From Shigella phage Sf16: DNA of 64,000 nucleotides. A program made the translations under genes and the position numbers. This document shows positions 13,236 to 64,000 of the stretch, in pieces. The stretch lies in sequence record MF158043; one strand, written 5' to 3'. The notes beneath the pieces were generated by a model. It saw only the letters and a program-made list of their open reading frames with translations, was not told the DNA's origin and searched no databases. Every line of letters begins with the position of its first letter. Within the stretch, counting starts at the first letter, position 1.

Positions 13236-13651
13236 TGAAAACAGATTTTGCAATCAATCTTGGTGGTGACTACGTAGCTAAATTAGGAAATGATTCTGTA
13301 TACGTTGCTCACGGAGATTTAAAAATTACGGGTAATCAGATTAGAATTATCCCAGAAGACGATAAAGCTACTCAGGTAGCTCAAAGATTACATATTAGGT
13401 GTCTTCTAAGGGCTGGAGAAGTATTCTTTAATACATCTGCTGGATTCCCTTATTTACAGCTTGCTAAGTTCAAGCAGAAGACCTCTATTTTTGATAATTA
13501 TATGAAAGGTTACCTTGTTGAAACGAGAGATGTAACAAACATCTACAACTACTCTTCAACAATGGATAATGCAATGAGAAAAGTGTCAGTCAGATTTAAT
13601 GCAACGACAACTGCTGACGATGTTGAAATTAATACAGAGGTAAACATTTAA
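13235..13651 (+). CDS. putative baseplate wedge small subunit (gpW/gp25-like)
   Basis: 138-aa ORF, gene order. Confidence 0.35.
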
Positions 13652-15120
13652 TGGCTGGATTAACAACTACAGGTTTACAAACAAAAAGATATCAAGAAAT
13701 CTTGGATGATGTTAAAGCAAGTCTGTATAGAGATATCTCACCAAACCTTGATGTTTCTGAAGATAGCGAACTTGGGTTATTCTTAGCTTCTGTTTGCCGA
13801 GGTCTTGCAGACGTTCATGAAATCTTGTCAGAAATCTATGATGGTGGTACTATTGACAAAGCTGAAGGATTCAGTTTAGATGATGTAACAGCTTTGAATG
13901 CTGTATACAGATATGTGGCACAAGCTACAAGAGGTCAAGCTGAGTTCACTGGTAACTCTGGTGCTCCTGTACCAGCAACTACAAGATTAAGAAGCACAGC
14001 AGGTAACATCTTTTACCCTGTGTCAACTTTCACGCTGACTCCATCTTACTGTGTAGAGGCAAACTTAGAAGTTAACTCTTTACGAACAGATGCAAACTAT
14101 GTTATTATCATTGATAACATTGAGTATTCATATCAGCCGACTAGCTCTGATACCATTACAACATTGCTACAGAAACTTGCAGATGCTATTAATGGTGGTA
14201 TTATTGCAAAGGCTGAAGTTACTAATGATGGCTCAGTTCTAAGAATCTATAAAGACACTGGAGATATCATTGCCAGAACTAACCCTATGGTTGTTACTGC
14301 AACGACATTCTTAACATTTACAAAGATTACTTCAATCAGTGACGTTGTAGCAGATGAAACTGGAGCTATCCAGACTCTGGCAGGAACCTTGATTGAGATT
14401 GAAACAACTGTAGATGGTCTTGATAGTGTCTTCAACAGATATGATTTGACAACAGGTCGTGATGAGGAAACTGACACAGAACTGAGACAACGTTACTTAG
14501 AATCTCTGGCTGTTACCGGTGTAGGTACTCTGGATGCTATTGTAGCTGCTGTAAAGAGAGTTCAAGGTGTGTCTGACGCTTCTGGTGTAGAAAATGATAC
14601 TGAGACAACAAACTCTGATGGTCTTCCTCCGAAGTCTTTTAAGATTGTTGTAGTTGGTGGTCAGAATGATAATATTGCACAGGCAATCTGGGACACGAAA
14701 CCTGCTGGTATTCGCCCATATGGTGCAATCTTTGGGACTGCATATGACTTAGGCTCTCTCCCTCACGATGTTTACTTTAGTAGACCAATGCCTAAATACG
14801 TTTTTGTCAAGGTCACTTACTCTCTTTACGATGAAGAAACTCTTAACATCCCTGAACAGGATATTCATGACAGAATTGTTCAAGGTATCAATACCTATGG
14901 TAGAACGTTGAAAGTTGGTAACGATGTAATCCCTAACAGAATTTATGGGCATATCTATGATGTGATTCAAGGTATTGAGATTAATGAGATTAAGGTTGCA
15001 CTTTCAAACAACCAAGCAATTCCACCTGCTGATGAGCAGTACACCACTTCAAGAATTACTATTGATGGTGACCAGTACACTGTTTGGGAAAGCTCACAGT
15101 ATACAATTACCAAGGAGTAA
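13651..15120 (+). CDS. putative baseplate J-like protein
   Basis: 489-aa ORF, gene order. Confidence 0.45.
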
Positions 15121-59254: not shown

Positions 59255-59455
59255 ATGGCTGATTTCTGCACTAAGTGTTCTGTTGAGATGTTTGGAAAAG
59301 ACACAGGGGACTTAAAAGGCCTCTTTACAAAAGCAGAGTTTGAAGCTGGTTCAGCAATGCCAGTAATCTGTGAAGGTTGTGGTGCTTTATGGGTAGACCA
59401 TGAAGGTAACCGAGTTAAACCATCTGAAGATAACGAACGTTGGGAGCATTACTAA
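59255..59455 (+). CDS. small zinc-ribbon protein
   Basis: CTKC ... CEGCG cysteine pairs. Confidence 0.4.
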   Translation: MADFCTKCSVEMFGKDTGDLKGLFTKAEFEAGSAMPVICEGCGALWVDHEGNRVKPSEDNERWEHY

Positions 59456-59456
59456 T

Positions 59457-60251
59457 ATGGGTATCGTAAAAATTATTAAAGGTGATATCTTTAAAGACTT
59501 TGATGGTAAGAAATTTGATATCATTGGTCACGGTTGTAACTGCATGAACTTGATGGGTGCAGGTATCGCAGCAACAATTGCCAAACGTTACCCAAAAGCT
59601 TATGAAACTGACGCTGAAGTTTATGCTACAGTAGGTGGTGAAAATCATAACCCTAAGCATCTAATGCTTGGTAACATCTCTGTAGCACGTTTTAAGCAGG
59701 GTCGAATTGCTAACCTTTACACTCAGGTTATCACTGGCAAAGATGCACGATACAACGCCTTAGAAGCAGCTTTACAGCGTCTTAACAACTACTGTAAAGT
59801 TAATCAACTTAAGAAAGTTGGGCTTCCGATGATTGGTGCAGGGATTGGTGGTCTTGATAGCATGGCTGTGCTGTCCATTATCAACCAGACTATGAAGGAT
59901 GTTGACGTTTATATGTATGTCTATGAAGATAAGATGTACAGTCAGTTGACTAGTCCTGTTACTGGTTGGGAGAACTTCAGTGAGCCTCAATACTTTGATG
60001 GTGTTGCTGTGGTAGGCAAGGATAAAGTTACCCTCAAGGTGAAGCGTAATGGCAAGGTACACACCAGTTACCCTCCGGTTGAGAAGTACAATCGAAGTAA
60101 CGCTCAAGTTACCCACCCGTTACAAGGCCACCACCACAGAGCGGTAACGTTTGGCGATGATGCAAGTGTATATATCAATGCGACTACAGAAGAGTTTGCA
60201 GAAGATTATATCACACATGAAAACGTAAACTATGTTGAAGCACGTAACTAA
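59457..60251 (+). CDS. macro-domain protein, TARG1/DarG-like ADP-ribosyl hydrolase (putative)
   Basis: IKGDIF...DIIGHGCNCMNLMGAGIAATIAKRYP and LPMIGAGIGGLD...VYMYVY match the TARG1/DarG macro pattern; extra C-terminal ~110 aa. Confidence 0.65.
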   Translation: MGIVKIIKGDIFKDFDGKKFDIIGHGCNCMNLMGAGIAATIAKRYPKAYETDAEVYATVGGENHNPKHLMLGNISVARFKQGRIANLYTQVITGKDARYNALEAALQRLNNYCKVNQLKKVGLPMIGAGIGGLDSMAVLSIINQTMKDVDVYMYVYEDKMYSQLTSPVTGWENFSEPQYFDGVAVVGKDKVTLKVKRNGKVHTSYPPVEKYNRSNAQVTHPLQGHHHRAVTFGDDASVYINATTEEFAEDYITHENVNYVEARN

Positions 60252-60277: not shown

Positions 60278-60325
60278 GCCCTCCAAAGTTTGAGTTTTAA
60301 ATCTCAGGTAAGGAGGGCTTTTTCA
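60278..60325 (+). terminator. putative terminator
   Basis: GCCCUCC ... GGAGGGC stem with long loop, then UUUUU. Confidence 0.4.
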
Positions 60326-60515
60326 TTTCAAATCTGTGCAGGTATAGTTGAGTAGAACTCTGGACAGATTTCTTTAACTGAACTCCAAAGGGAAATTTCA
60401 TTTTCAAAACGTACAGGTCTAGACTCCAAAGAGCTTTTTCATTTTCAATCTGTGCAGATGCAGTTGGACTCCAAAGGGAAAATTCATTTTCAAATTGTGC
60501 AGGTAGGTAGCTGTA
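60281..60515. repeat. four degenerate ~45-bp direct repeats
   Basis: unit ACTCCAAAG(G/A)G...TTTCATTTTCAA(A/T)(T/C)TGTGCAG(G/A)T seen four times. Confidence 0.55.
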
Positions 60516-60676: not shown

Positions 60677-60703
60677 TTGACTTCATAAATCCAGTCTTAT
60701 AGT
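60677..60703 (+). promoter_or_regulatory. promoter TTGACT-15-TATAGT with AT-rich upstream element
   Basis: hexamers read directly; first promoter of the small-ORF array. Confidence 0.5.
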
Positions 60704-60755
60704 ATTTGCATCAACGGGAAACATCCCAACAATCCTAAACTGGAGAATCTAAAAA

Positions 60756-60962
60756 ATGTTATATCAACGTGAGTTAATGATTGTTGACAACAACAAAACA
60801 AATAAACGTCGTTTCTATATGCTAATTTGTGATGTTTGGCAACGCATTTCAGAAAAGGATTTTGATAAATATGTTGATACGTCAATCAGGTCAGATTGTT
60901 ACTTGACAACTCATACAAGACAGTTTACAAGGCATACAGCAATTTATTATTACAACGTTTAA
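60756..60962 (+). CDS. hypothetical small protein
   Basis: 68-aa ORF preceded by conserved leader CCTAAACTGGAGAATCTAAAA. Confidence 0.35.
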   Translation: MLYQRELMIVDNNKTNKRRFYMLICDVWQRISEKDFDKYVDTSIRSDCYLTTHTRQFTRHTAIYYYNV

Positions 60963-60973
60963 AAGGCTTGACA

Positions 60974-61135
60974 ATGATTAAAGAAAACGATGTAATACAA
61001 TACAAAGATTTGGACGGATACCCAAAAATTGGTAAAGTTTTCTATCTCTATAAGTCTGCTATGGGTAATGATTGTATAGCCCTTATAAATGGCGACAAAA
61101 TAACCATGAAAGATTTTATAAAAATTATTGCATAA
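60974..61135 (+). CDS. hypothetical small protein
   Basis: internal ATG 60974 of track ORF 60896-61135. Confidence 0.3.
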   Translation: MIKENDVIQYKDLDGYPKIGKVFYLYKSAMGNDCIALINGDKITMKDFIKIIA

Positions 61136-61218
61136 AGTGCTTTACATGGGGTTTAAAAGCTAGTATCTTAAGCCCAGATAAAGAGCTTTACAAACAATCC
61201 TAAACTGGAGAATCTAAA
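61136..61218 (+). promoter_or_regulatory. repeated promoter/stem-loop/leader element (PeSL-like), copy 1
   Basis: TTTACA-17-TATCTT, hairpin CTTTACATGGGG...CCCCAGATAAAG, conserved leader and GGAG RBS. Confidence 0.5.
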
Positions 61219-61599
61219 ATGAAATATCGTGCGCCTAAATTTATCAACAAAGAAAACTTTCGTAGTATCTTAGAGGAAACTATGAAAGAAAACTTCAAAG
61301 AAAAAATAATTGTTGTTCACGCTTACAATTTTAAGTATGATGTTAATGGTAACCGTATTAACCACTACAAAGCTACTATGCTTGACGGCACATTATCCGG
61401 TGAAAAAGCTATCATAAATGCTATTGCAGGACGTGGTAAAACTGTGATACGATGCGAAAAAAGACGCTATCAAGGCGGAAAATATGGATATGAAGATGCA
61501 ATGTACCATCTTGATAAAATGGGGTATGATGTAGAGAAAGCTGGAGTATCTCAAACGATTGGTAGTGACGGCTACGTTACAGTTTTCAAAATTAACTAA
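61219..61599 (+). CDS. hypothetical small protein
   Basis: 126-aa ORF after element copy 1. Confidence 0.4.
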   Translation: MKYRAPKFINKENFRSILEETMKENFKEKIIVVHAYNFKYDVNGNRINHYKATMLDGTLSGEKAIINAIAGRGKTVIRCEKRRYQGGKYGYEDAMYHLDKMGYDVEKAGVSQTIGSDGYVTVFKIN

Positions 61600-61691
61600 A
61601 TAAAGTCCTTTACATGGGGTTTATAGTTAGATAAGATAAGCCCCAGATAAAGAGCTTTACCAAACAATAACCTAAACTGGAGAATCAAAAA
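61600..61691 (+). promoter_or_regulatory. PeSL-like element, copy 2
   Basis: TTTACA-17-TAAGAT, same hairpin arms and leader. Confidence 0.5.
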
Positions 61692-61949
61692 ATGGCTACT
61701 ATCAAAAACATCATTGTATCTGCAAAATCTCGTGATGACGCTCGCGCAACTGCTAAAAAACTAAATGGCAAAGTTGTTGACAACGGAAAAGAAGCTGCTG
61801 TAAGATGGGGCGTGAAATGTGATAAGGAAATTACTTTAAAACGTAGTTCCTATGACCTTTTCAAAGGTGTAAAAGCAATCGGTAGAACTAATGTCTACAC
61901 AAAGAAAGGTTACAAAATGCACTTATCATTAACTAGCAATTTAATCTGA
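61692..61949 (+). CDS. hypothetical small protein
   Basis: 85-aa ORF. Confidence 0.4.
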   Translation: MATIKNIIVSAKSRDDARATAKKLNGKVVDNGKEAAVRWGVKCDKEITLKRSSYDLFKGVKAIGRTNVYTKKGYKMHLSLTSNLI

Positions 61950-62040
61950 TAAAGTGCTTTACATGGGGTTTATAAGTTGCTAGTATAAGCCCCAGATAAA
62001 GAGCTTTACTAACCAATAGTCCTAAACTGGAGAATCTAAA
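61950..62040 (+). promoter_or_regulatory. PeSL-like element, copy 3
   Basis: TTTACA-17-TAGTAT, same hairpin arms and leader. Confidence 0.5.
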
Positions 62041-62553
62041 ATGAATTTTGTTGAAAGCACCTTTGAAGTTCAAAAAGAAAAATTCACTATCATCTATGAA
62101 GCTGTTAATATTTGTGAAGCATCCCATTGTGTGGAGAATTGGAAGTTTACCGATGAGCACAAAGGCGGGGTTACAATCAAACTTAAAAATCCAGAGCGTA
62201 ACGGGTACAAATATGCAATTCCACAGCATTACAGCCTTGCACAATTGATGAGTGATTATGCTAAGCAAGGCCGCGAAAATCCATCTATAGAGGCTTACAA
62301 GAGCTTACAAGATGAATTACAAAGAGATTTAGAAGCTAACAGCTATGTGCTATTTGCAAAGGTAGAAGATAAAGAAGGTAATACGGTATTAAATAGCTTT
62401 TCACTTGCTTATGGTTTCGATTGGTGTTATCTTGACGGGGAAGATTTAGATTCACGCTTAGAAGAGGAAGTGTCGAACTCCGATGGAGAATCTGAAGTAA
62501 TGGAACGTTTAGAAGCCTTGAAAGATTCTGTTATGAATATCTTTAATATCTAA
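62041..62553 (+). CDS. hypothetical protein
   Basis: 170-aa ORF, acidic C-terminus. Confidence 0.4.
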   Translation: MNFVESTFEVQKEKFTIIYEAVNICEASHCVENWKFTDEHKGGVTIKLKNPERNGYKYAIPQHYSLAQLMSDYAKQGRENPSIEAYKSLQDELQRDLEANSYVLFAKVEDKEGNTVLNSFSLAYGFDWCYLDGEDLDSRLEEEVSNSDGESEVMERLEALKDSVMNIFNI

Positions 62554-62636
62554 AGTGCTTTACATGGGGTTATCAAGTTGATAAGATAGCCCCAGATAAA
62601 GAGCTTTACAAACAATCCTAAACTGGAGAATCTAAA
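62554..62636 (+). promoter_or_regulatory. PeSL-like element, copy 4
   Basis: TTTACA-17-TAAGAT, same hairpin arms and leader. Confidence 0.5.
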
Positions 62637-62933
62637 ATGTTTATTGCCGCAAACGTTAGAACTAAATTAAGCCAGCTATTAAGTAATATCCAATTCATTG
62701 AATCCATGCGCCGTACATCTGAAGCCGTAGAGTGGTATCATGGAAAGATTAACAAAAAGGAAGTAATAATTTGTGTATGGAACTTTTGTAAAGAATACAA
62801 AAAACCATTGCTTCAGGTTGATATCTATGATAACACTAATAAGTCATCGATTAAGACTACTAGAGATATGGTTGATTCATATGAAATTAGTCACACTGGT
62901 AAACTATTTCACAAAGGCGTGAACAAATGTTAA
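62637..62933 (+). CDS. hypothetical small protein
   Basis: 98-aa ORF. Confidence 0.4.
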   Translation: MFIAANVRTKLSQLLSNIQFIESMRRTSEAVEWYHGKINKKEVIICVWNFCKEYKKPLLQVDIYDNTNKSSIKTTRDMVDSYEISHTGKLFHKGVNKC

Positions 62934-63274
62934 TCACATACACTGCAATTTTTATCTCTATTGTGGCGCTCTATAAAGCTCTGCAAGCGCACAGTATAGC
63001 TAATAAGGCACTTACAAGGGATTTAAAAATAAATCTTGTACGGGGATTTTTAGAGCGTTTGAGCTTAGAACAATTGAAACGCTTAGAGATGAGCTTTCGA
63101 TTCAAAGCAGAAACATACCGGATTGATAACATCCTAGACGGTGATTTTAAATTAATCAGTGATTATGACATACTTCTTGAGTCAATTCAAGATATAAACC
63201 TGAAAGATTATTATATCGTGATAGCACAAGAAATTAATAAAAAAGAGCTTGCAATGCAGAATCAAAACAAGTAA
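62927..63274 (+). CDS. hypothetical protein with N-terminal hydrophobic segment
   Basis: 115-aa ORF, no element upstream (translationally coupled). Confidence 0.35.
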   Translation: MLITYTAIFISIVALYKALQAHSIANKALTRDLKINLVRGFLERLSLEQLKRLEMSFRFKAETYRIDNILDGDFKLISDYDILLESIQDINLKDYYIVIAQEINKKELAMQNQNK

Positions 63275-63332
63275 AGTATTCATCAACGGGGCAAGATAGA
63301 AGCCCCAACAATCCTAAACTGGAGAATCTAAA
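63275..63332 (+). promoter_or_regulatory. variant leader element (type B) with GGGGC...GCCCC hairpin
   Basis: shares CATCAACGGG...CCCAACAATCCTAAACTGGAGAATCTAAAATG with the leader at 60704-60755. Confidence 0.4.
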
Positions 63333-63605
63333 ATGTATACTACTAATGACGGTCGCACTTTGAACGTAACTTTAAAACACTATGTAGACGGTGTATTAAA
63401 CTTTGAAGAGTTAAGAGCAGAACAGCACCTATTAGATTGGCAAGTAGCAGGTTTACAAAAAACCGCCACAGGATATGGAAAGAAAATTCCTACATCTTGG
63501 AAAGTTCGATACCTTGGAAAGTTACGCAGAATTTATCAAGATGTTTATAGTAATAGCGGTGTAAGTTATATTATTGTTAGCGGTAAAAAATTGTATTTAG
63601 TCTAA
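63333..63605 (+). CDS. hypothetical small protein
   Basis: 90-aa ORF; its 3-prime 185 bp is duplicated at 63816-64000. Confidence 0.4.
   Translation: MYTTNDGRTLNVTLKHYVDGVLNFEELRAEQHLLDWQVAGLQKTATGYGKKIPTSWKVRYLGKLRRIYQDVYSNSGVSYIIVSGKKLYLV
63421..63605 (+). repeat. 185-bp exact direct repeat, copy A
   Basis: identical base-for-base to 63816-64000. Confidence 0.8.
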
Positions 63606-63695
63606 TAAATTGCTTTACATGGGGTTTAAAAGTTAGTATCTTAAGCCCCAGATAAAGAGATTTACCAACAATCAACCTAAACTGGAGACTAGAAA
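63606..63695 (+). promoter_or_regulatory. PeSL-like element, copy 5
   Basis: TTTACA-17-TATCTT, same hairpin arms, variant leader. Confidence 0.5.
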
Positions 63696-63830
63696 ATGAC
63701 TACAATTAATCACAAAGAAGTTGCAATTTTGAAAGCACGTTTGACCATTAACCGCATCAACATTGTAACATCAGCAGCGCCAGACGAAACACTGCATAAT
63801 ATCATCGGTAAAATTAACAGCACCTATTAG
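63696..63830 (+). CDS. short 44-aa ORF running into the duplicated segment
   Basis: hand translation; terminates at TAG 5 codons into the repeat copy, in a different frame from the original gene. Confidence 0.25.
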   Translation: MTTINHKEVAILKARLTINRINIVTSAAPDETLHNIIGKINSTY

Positions 63831-64000
63831 ATTGGCAAGTAGCAGGTTTACAAAAAACCGCCACAGGATATGGAAAGAAAATTCCTACATCTTGGAAAGT
63901 TCGATACCTTGGAAAGTTACGCAGAATTTATCAAGATGTTTATAGTAATAGCGGTGTAAGTTATATTATTGTTAGCGGTAAAAAATTGTATTTAGTCTAA
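63816..64000 (+). repeat. 185-bp exact direct repeat, copy B (start-less 3-prime gene fragment, truncated by window end)
   Basis: identical to 63421-63605; in the gene frame a stop lies immediately upstream and no start codon is present. Confidence 0.8.

What the first reader, a model, noticed from the sequence alone, without database searches (positions are those of the whole stretch)
63421..64000. Exact 185-bp direct duplication of a gene 3-prime end, ending at the window edge
63421-63605 (the last 61 codons and stop of ORF 63333-63605) is repeated base-for-base at 63816-64000, 395 bp downstream. Between the copies lie one PeSL-like element and a 44-codon ORF that reads into copy B out of frame and stops 5 codons in; in the original frame copy B has no start codon. 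Inference: either a recent element-mediated recombination left a gene fragment (direct evidence of the shuffling mechanism), or this is an assembly/terminal-redundancy artefact. The identity may extend beyond the window.
Basis: seen in the sequence. Interest (0 to 1): 0.55.

Follow-up and report, generated by a model that had tools for sequence, protein, structure and literature searches.

The report
Untrimmed assembly overlap at record end
The exact 185-base repeat is real in the sequence. It is most likely a leftover overlap from closing and re-opening the assembly of Shigella phage Sf16, not a biological gene duplication, so the finding is ordinary.

Summary
Observation confirmed. Window 63421-63605 equals 63816-64000 base for base, 395 nt apart, and it is the only long exact repeat in the window.

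The window is the last 64 kb of the GenBank record of Shigella phage Sf16 (Mooglevirus, 88,580 bp). The 44-codon chimeric ORF is the record's last CDS (Sf16_gp134). The record's first CDS (Sf16_gp1) is the intact 135-aa gene whose first 40 residues gp134 repeats. A 395-nt unit (gene A 3' end, intergenic cassette, gene B 5' end) is therefore written twice across the record's ends.

None of more than 20 relatives has the junction. The junction lies inside both coding sequences, not in the repeated intergenic element, and has no microhomology.

All six sister records from the same laboratory that could be checked carry the same kind of exact leftover:
- Sf13 and Sf15: 248-nt end overlaps.
- Sf17: 427-nt end overlap.
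- Sf14: 416-nt tandem unit at the record origin.
- Sf18: 416-nt tandem unit that splits the baseplate gene.
- KPS64: 127-nt tandem unit.

Verdict: an untrimmed contig-end overlap, rotated to a gene boundary (about 0.88). A real recent tandem duplication is not excluded (about 0.07). Element-mediated shuffling is not supported. Interest is low.

The parts
63333..63605 (+). Gene A, 90 aa, hypothetical early protein (Sf16_gp133, ATE86273.1; phrog_3436, unknown function). Intact copy.
63421..63815 (+). First, complete copy of the 395-nt repeated unit: gene A 3' end (185 nt), intergenic cassette (90 nt) and the first 120 nt of gene B.
   Evidence: the unit length follows from the 395-nt spacing
63421..63605 (+). 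Copy A of the 185-nt exact repeat: the last 61 codons of gene A plus its stop.
63606..63695 (+). Intergenic promoter/stem-loop cassette (PeSL-like), one of at least 6 copies in 60.7-63.7 kb. It is not the site of the junction.
63696..63830 (+). Spurious 44-aa chimeric ORF, annotated as Sf16_gp134 (ATE86274.1), the last CDS of the record. It holds codons 1-40 of gene B, then NSTY and a stop read from copy B.
63815..63816 (.). Junction ...GGTAAAATT|AACAGCACC.... All relatives continue ...GGTAAAATT|CAGGGCG.... There is 0 nt microhomology, and the junction is found in no other public sequence.
63816..64000 (+). Copy B: the first 185 nt of the second copy of the unit, ending at the stop codon and at the end of the source record. 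The remaining 210 nt of the unit lie at the start of the record, outside the window.

Best explanation
The window is the last 64,000 bases of GenBank record MF158043 (Shigella phage Sf16, 88,580 bp).

Inferred history of the record:
1. The assembler produced a contig that ran slightly more than once round the circular map. Its first 395 nt and last 395 nt were therefore the same sequence: gene A 3' end, intergenic cassette, gene B 5' end.
2. The curators joined the ends without removing one copy.
3. They re-opened the sequence 185 nt further on, exactly after the stop codon of gene A.

The end overlap thereby became an apparent tandem duplication written across the record's ends. The record now ends with gene A, the cassette, the first 40 codons of gene B, and then a second gene A 3' end. 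It begins with the cassette and an intact gene B.

Because 395 is not a multiple of 3, the join creates a spurious 44-aa ORF, which was annotated as gp134. The true genome would be about 88,185 bp with one copy of each gene, and the repeat has no biological function.

Shown: the exact repeat, its absence from relatives, the position of the repeat unit across the record ends, and the same artefact class in sister records. Inferred: the order of assembly and curation steps, and that no reads support the junction.
For: 1. Source and position. The 44-aa ORF is ATE86274.1, Sf16_gp134, a singleton seen on one contig of 88,580 bp. Gene A is Sf16_gp133 and upstream genes are gp124-gp132, with consecutive accessions. 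The next accession, ATE86275, is Sf18_gp1, so gp134 is the last CDS of the record. Sf16_gp1 (ATE86141) is a full-length 135-aa gene B and gp2 is the 82-aa gene that follows B in all relatives. The first 40 residues of gp1 equal those of gp134, including the Sf16-specific MTTIN where KPS64 has MTNVN.

2. Absence elsewhere. In every relative examined, gene A is followed by a single intact 135-aa gene B, and homology to the window breaks exactly at 63815. These comprise 22 phage records and 16 loci, including ENA metagenome scaffolds. The junction string is absent from the viral, genome and metagenome contig collections.

3. The junction is inside both coding sequences with 0 nt microhomology.

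4. All six same-laboratory records that could be checked carry exact leftovers, at unrelated loci:
- Sf13: first 248 nt equal the last 248 nt, in the tape-measure chaperone region.
- Sf15: first 248 nt equal the last 248 nt, in the gene B region.
- Sf17: first 427 nt equal the last 427 nt, and the second gene copy is tagged Sf17_xxxxx.
- Sf14: a 416-nt unit straddles the record origin, the record ends at a stop codon, and the depositors noted 'potential duplication of gp130 sequence'.
- Sf18: a perfect 416-nt tandem unit lies inside the baseplate J-like gene and splits it into gp135 and gp136, whereas the window has one intact 489-aa ORF at 13651-15120.
- KPS64: a perfect 127-nt tandem unit; 127 is, from my own knowledge, the largest default k-mer of SPAdes.

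The same length, 416, recurs at two unrelated loci, and the Sf18 and KPS64 junctions printed also lack microhomology.

5. The records are cut at gene boundaries. Sf14 and Sf18 end at stop codons and Sf19 starts at an ATG. This explains why copy B ends exactly at a stop codon.
Against: No reads are available, so the absence of reads spanning GGTAAAATT|AACAGCACC is inferred, not shown. The start of the Sf16 record could not be read as DNA; only the proteins gp1 and gp2 were seen. A genuine 395-nt tandem duplication longer than the read length could itself make an assembler break there and emit a contig with identical ends. The record structure alone therefore does not exclude a real duplication. 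The overlap lengths (248-427 nt) are not those of a common fixed k-mer, and the assembler used is unknown to me because the original paper, PMC5874400, was not held.
Confidence: 0.88

Rival explanations
1. A real, very recent 395-nt tandem duplication in the Sf16 stock. One illegitimate exchange between sister genomes joined codon 40 of gene B to codon 30 of gene A. This would give gene A, cassette, a B5'::A3' chimera, cassette and an intact gene B. The assembler then broke at the repeat, which is why the repeat sits at the record ends.
For: The structure is exactly what a single-junction tandem duplication would give, and both parental genes stay intact. The region holds small non-essential early genes where extra DNA would be tolerated, and related genomes differ by gene-sized indels here. 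Repeats longer than the reads can break assemblies. A circular 4.7-kb metagenome contig from a relative shows that real rearrangements occur in this region.
Against: The two copies are 100% identical. There is no microhomology. The junction is in none of more than 20 relatives or any contig collection. Six sister records show the same pattern at unrelated loci, including a frameshifting 416-nt unit inside the baseplate J-like gene of a phage that was isolated and propagated, and the same 416-nt length twice. A technical cause explains all seven records at once.
Confidence: 0.07
2. The 395-nt unit is the physical direct terminal repeat of the packaged linear genome. The record shows the two terminal copies brought together.
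For: A Felixounavirus, Pr103Blw (same subfamily, Ounavirinae), was reported by PhageTerm to have 581-bp direct terminal repeats (PMC8303462). Other Felixounavirus coliphages are also reported with direct terminal repeats (PMC11737134). The size of 395-427 nt is in the same range.
Against: Sequence-specific termini should sit at the homologous place in phages that are 96-99% identical. Here the redundant segment differs in every sister record: gene A/B in Sf16, near gene B in Sf15, the 113-aa gene in Sf14, the 87-aa gene in Sf17, the baseplate gene in Sf18 and the tape-measure chaperone region in Sf13. No common boundary motif is visible at the junctions. Both boundaries in Sf16 lie in the middle of coding sequences.
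Confidence: 0.03
3. PeSL-type element-mediated modular shuffling. Recombination between repeated intergenic cassettes replaced the 3' part of gene B with a fragment of gene A.
For: The region is packed with near-identical promoter/stem-loop cassettes. These resemble the PeSLs that mediate shuffling in T4-type phages (PMC2839356).
Against: The junction is not in a cassette but inside both coding sequences. Gene B is not lost: an intact copy is the first gene of the same record.
Confidence: 0.02

Closest known systems
Untrimmed end overlap of a circular or circularly permuted phage assembly (for example the k-mer overlap SPAdes leaves on circular contigs, or the direct terminal repeats that completeness tools flag)
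   Same: The two copies are exactly identical. The repeat is tied to the ends of the record, absent from relatives, arbitrary in position and without microhomology. Sister records Sf13, Sf15 and Sf17 show the unrotated form, and Sf14, Sf18 and KPS64 the rotated, tandem form. The relative KMM2 was called complete because its record has such terminal repeats.
   Different: The record was re-opened 185 nt into the overlap, so the leftover looks like an internal duplication near one end rather than identical record ends. The overlap length of 395 nt is not a standard k-mer size.
PeSL (promoter-early stem-loop) cassettes and PeSL-mediated modular shuffling in T4-type phages (Arbiol et al. 2010, PMC2839356; Comeau et al. 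2014, PMC4122927)
   Same: The intergenic cassette between the copies combines a sigma-70-like promoter with a stem-loop. It is repeated before many small early genes in a variable region.
   Different: This is an Ounavirinae (FelixO1-like) phage, not a T4-type phage. The duplication junction does not lie in the cassette, so the cassette played no visible part in making it. Promoter and terminator activity were not tested.
Short direct terminal repeats of Felixounavirus phages (581 bp in Pr103Blw, PMC8303462)
   Same: Size range of a few hundred bases, in the same subfamily (Ounavirinae).
   Different: The position is not conserved among near-identical sister phages, and both boundaries fall inside genes. 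No read-start evidence is available.
Genuine tandem duplications in phage genomes (for example the T4 rII-region duplications; from my own knowledge, not checked here)
   Same: A single novel joint gives head-to-tail copies with the parental genes intact.
   Different: Nothing here requires a biological event. The joint coincides with the record ends, and the pattern recurs at arbitrary loci in the same sequencing batch.

Membership tests
Assembly end-overlap artefact (untrimmed circularisation) | The two copies are exactly identical | tested here: met
   185/185 identical. The first 40 residues of gp1 equal those of gp134, including Sf16-specific residues.
Assembly end-overlap artefact (untrimmed circularisation) | The repeated unit touches or straddles the ends of the deposited record | tested here: met
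   gp134 (63696-63830) is the last CDS, and gp1 is the intact gene B, of the 88,580-bp Sf16 record. Copy B ends at window position 64000.
Assembly end-overlap artefact (untrimmed circularisation) | The duplication is absent from close relatives and independent assemblies | tested here: met
   plus no exact junction match in three contig collections.
Assembly end-overlap artefact (untrimmed circularisation) | The same pipeline leaves the same kind of leftover in other records, at arbitrary loci | tested here: met
   Sf13 and Sf15 (248 nt), Sf17 (427 nt), Sf14 and Sf18 (416 nt; Sf18 inside the baseplate gene) and KPS64 (127 nt).
Assembly end-overlap artefact (untrimmed circularisation) | No sequencing reads span the novel junction, and coverage over the unit is single | not testable with these tools
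   No read data are accessible.
PeSL-mediated modular shuffling | The recombination junction lies within the repeated promoter/stem-loop cassette | tested here: not met
   The junction at 63815|63816 is at codon 40 of gene B and codon 30 of gene A. The cassette at 63606-63695 is untouched.
PeSL-mediated modular shuffling | Gene content is changed (insertion, deletion or replacement) relative to relatives | tested here: not met
   Intact gene A (gp133) and intact gene B (gp1) are both present.
Physical direct terminal repeat | The termini sit at the homologous position in closely related phages | tested here: not met
   The redundant segments of Sf13, Sf14, Sf15, Sf16, Sf17 and Sf18 lie at six different places.
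Physical direct terminal repeat | Read starts pile up at the repeat boundaries, with about twofold coverage | not testable with these tools
   No read data are accessible.
Genuine tandem duplication | The junction is supported by reads or by PCR | not testable with these tools
   No read data or wet-lab access.

The most novel reading that the evidence does not exclude
The Sf16 stock really carries a recent 395-nt tandem duplication (gene A 3' end, promoter/stem-loop cassette, gene B 5' end), and the assembler broke at it. It would be a freshly caught illegitimate-recombination event in the variable early-gene region of a FelixO1-like phage, adding a second copy of an early promoter cassette and a truncated 44-aa peptide.
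Probability: 0.07. Interest if true: 0.25.

Novelty: not a real feature. Interest (0 to 1): 0.06.

Why it matters
The biological significance is close to none. The practical significance is modest. The public Sf16 record probably overstates the genome by 395 bp and carries a spurious CDS (gp134, ATE86274.1; UniRef100_A0A291AZ42) that has propagated into protein databases as a singleton ORFan. Equivalent leftovers sit in Sf13, Sf14, Sf15, Sf17, Sf18 and KPS64. In Sf18 the leftover falsely splits the baseplate J-like gene into two proteins. Anyone using these records for pangenome, ORFan, terminus or duplication analyses would be misled. It is also a useful negative control for the scan: exact repeats that end at a window or record edge should first be tested as closure artefacts.

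Tried and rejected
- Searched for the exact junction string in viral, genome and metagenome contigs. No hits, so no independent occurrence.
- Tried to read beyond the window via the look-up of encoding contigs with the 44-aa ORF and the 283-aa form of the Macro protein.
- MF158043 is not in the phage collection and the original paper PMC5874400 is not held. The assembler and read type therefore remain unknown.
- Considered that contig ends cluster in the early region because of the repeated cassettes or a physical terminus. Dropped as an argument once Sf13 and Sf18 showed leftovers in structural genes.
- Considered a conserved direct terminal repeat, because Felixounavirus phages are reported to have them. 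Rejected because the positions differ among sister phages.
- Looked for microhomology at the junction. There is none.
- Pfam gave nothing for genes A and B. PHROGs gave only unknown-function families.
- Checked the arc lengths. The window up to the stop of gene A (63,605 nt), the 395-nt unit and the remaining arc (24,580 nt) sum to 88,580. From the record coordinates I reckon the same arc in KPS64 at about 24.5-24.6 kb. This is consistent, but it says nothing about where the window sits in the record.

Full report
**1. The observation.** Window 63421-63605 and 63816-64000 are identical over all 185 bases, with a start-to-start spacing of 395. A whole-window scan finds no other long exact repeat, so chance is excluded. 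The ORF description also holds.
- ORF 63333-63605 ("gene A") encodes 90 aa.
- ORF 63696-63830 encodes 44 aa: 40 codons, then AAC AGC ACC TAT TAG read out of frame from copy B.
- In the frame of gene A, the join itself forms a TAA at 63815-63817, and copy B has no ATG or GTG start in that frame.
- Between the copies lies one copy of the repeated intergenic cassette. It has TTTACA-17 nt-TATCTT overlapping a GGGG...CCCC hairpin, then CCTAAACTGGAGA before the ATG.

**2. What the window is.** It is a Mooglevirus (Ounavirinae, FelixO1-like myovirus). It is 96-99.8% identical to Shigella phages Sf13-Sf19, KPS64 and Escherichia phage 3HA14.

Exact protein look-ups identify the source as Shigella phage Sf16.
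- The 44-aa ORF is ATE86274.1, "Sf16_gp134". It is a singleton cluster seen on one contig of 88,580 bp.
- Gene A is Sf16_gp133, and the upstream genes looked up (gp124 and gp128-gp132) carry accessions in step with their numbers.
- Sf16 is MF158043.1, 88,580 bp. It is missing from the phage collection served here.
- The next accession, ATE86275, is Sf18_gp1, so gp134 is the last CDS of the Sf16 record.

The window edge at 64000, which is exactly the stop codon of copy B, is therefore the end of the record.

**3. What relatives have.** In every relative, gene A is followed by the cassette and then by one intact 135-aa gene ("gene B"). The relatives comprise 22 phage records and 16 fetched loci, including ENA metagenome scaffolds.

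Homology to the window stops exactly at 63815. Relatives read ...GGTAAAATT|CAGGGCG..., whereas the window reads ...GGTAAAATT|AACAGCACC.... The junction string occurs in no viral, genome or metagenome contig. The junction sits at codon 40 of gene B and codon 30 of gene A, not in the cassette. It shares no bases with either parental flank.

**4. The other half of the unit.** Sf16_gp1 (ATE86141.1) is a full-length 135-aa gene B, and gp2 is the 82-aa gene that follows B everywhere. The first 40 residues of gp1 are identical to those of gp134, including the Sf16-specific MTTIN where KPS64 has MTNVN.

The record therefore ends with A, cassette, B(1-40) and then the A 3' end. It starts with an intact B. 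Joined end to start, this is a 395-nt unit written twice, with the record cut 185 nt into the second copy, right after a stop codon. Because 395 = 3 x 131 + 2, the join shifts the frame and makes the 44-aa ORF.

**5. The same leftover in sister records.** The Sf records and KPS64 share one annotation style and Michigan sampling sites, and the Sf phages trace to Doore et al., so I take them to come from one laboratory.

| Record | Leftover | Location |
|---|---|---|
| Sf13 | first 248 nt = last 248 nt | tape-measure chaperone region |
| Sf15 | first 248 nt = last 248 nt | gene B region |
| Sf17 | first 427 nt = last 427 nt, no mismatch; second gene copy tagged "Sf17_xxxxx" | 87-aa gene |
| Sf14 | 416-nt unit straddling the record origin; record ends at the stop codon of gp131, annotated "potential duplication of gp130 sequence" | 113-aa gene |
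| Sf18 | perfect 416-nt tandem unit | inside the baseplate J-like gene |
| KPS64 | perfect 127-nt tandem unit that relatives lack | 46-aa gene region |

Further points:
- The first 29 nt of the Sf14 record complete its second unit.
- In Sf18 the unit splits the baseplate gene into gp135 and gp136. The window and the other phages have one intact 489-aa ORF (window 13651-15120). The Sf18 record also ends at a stop codon.
- The length 127 in KPS64 is, from my own knowledge, the largest default k-mer of SPAdes.
- The Sf18 and KPS64 junctions printed have 0 nt microhomology.
- The length 416 recurs at two unrelated loci.
- One of the units would frameshift the baseplate gene of a phage that was isolated and propagated.

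These cannot all be biological. They are what remains when a contig that overlaps itself is left untrimmed (Sf13, Sf15, Sf17) or is joined and re-opened at a nearby gene boundary (Sf14, Sf18, KPS64, Sf16). Only the two ends of Sf19 were seen, and they show no overlap.

**6. Rivals.**
- **Real recent tandem duplication.** It would give the same structure and could itself break an assembly. It cannot be excluded without reads, but it needs special pleading given section 5. I give it about 0.07.
- **Physical direct terminal repeat.** Felixounavirus phages are reported with direct terminal repeats, 581 bp in Pr103Blw. However, the redundant segment lies at six different places in six near-identical sister phages, and its boundaries fall inside genes. 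I give it about 0.03.
- **PeSL-type element-mediated shuffling** (PMC2839356). The junction position contradicts it, and so does the intact gene B at the record start. I give it about 0.02.

**7. Genes involved.** Gene A matches phrog_3436 and gene B matches phrog_4327, both of unknown function. Neither has a Pfam hit. Nothing about them bears on the verdict.

**8. Verdict.** The repeat is present in the sequence, but it is most likely an untrimmed assembly overlap at the end of the Sf16 record (confidence 0.88). The true genome would be about 88,185 bp, and Sf16_gp134 would be a spurious ORF. Interest is low. The value lies in flagging errors in seven public records and in the side observation of a circular early-gene contig in a relative.

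Noticed in passing
L016 (ENA ERZ1309543 NODE_10456, 4,752 nt), junction at about L016 3795-3815: The first 55 nt of this contig equal its last 55 nt, so it is a circular 4,697-nt path. It carries the early genes 85, 170, 98, 115, 90 (A), 135 (B), 82, 185 and 76 aa, joined to 68, 52 and 126 aa. The single novel junction lies in the shared stem-loop motif CATCAACGGG, between the cassette after the 76-aa gene and the cassette before the 68-aa gene. The longest identical stretch between the two parental cassettes is 14 nt, far below the 55-nt overlap, so reads should span the junction. It is a candidate PeSL-type mini-circle or tandem amplification in a wild relative (compare PMC2839356). Coverage is low (3.7x) and it was reported in 2 samples.
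   Followed up: partly
Sister records: L034 616-1447 (Sf18 MF158044 88886-89717); L019 15142-15944 (Sf14 MF327003); L027/L028 (Sf17 MF327004 1-427 and 89666-90092); Sf13 MF158040 and Sf15 MF158041 record ends; L001 6890-7143 (KPS64 MK562502): Six public Mooglevirus records carry exact leftover overlaps of 127, 248, 248, 416, 416 and 427 nt. In Sf18 the leftover falsely splits the baseplate J-like gene into gp135 and gp136. In Sf14 and Sf17 it produces a duplicated CDS.
   Followed up: yes
window 60314-60511: Four imperfect copies (62-88% identical) of a roughly 40-45-nt repeat, consensus ACTCCAAAGGGAAATTTCATTTTCAAAATGTGCAGATCTAG. They lie in the non-coding stretch downstream of the Macro-domain gene, where relatives annotate a small reverse-strand ORF. 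They could be a regulatory or origin-like array. Function unknown.
   Followed up: no
window 60700-63700 (for example 61133-61221, 61589-61691, 61938-62040, 62551-62639, 63287-63332, 63604-63696): Two kinds of repeated intergenic cassette precede nearly every small early gene. One has TTTACA-17 nt-TAxxxT overlapping a GGGG...CCCC hairpin, followed by CAGATAAAGAGCTTTACC. The other is a shorter CATCAACGGGG...CCCC hairpin. Both end in the near-invariant CCTAAACTGGAGA just before the ATG. This is a PeSL-like architecture in a FelixO1-like rather than a T4-type phage. Mordin's depositors annotated a 14-nt repeat_region immediately upstream of the ribosome-binding site of many of these genes.
   Followed up: partly
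L012, L013, L015, L020, L021, L022 (metagenome, Logan and phage-record ends): Several independent assemblies of related phages end inside this early-gene region. This is probably because the repeated cassettes and the low G+C (35% against about 39-40%) break assemblies there.
   Followed up: no
window 59400-60251: The longest ORF of the Macro-domain gene is 283 aa. Most relatives, and the Sf16 annotation, use the internal ATG at 59457 (264 aa). One record (Henu12) uses the 283-aa form.
   Followed up: partly
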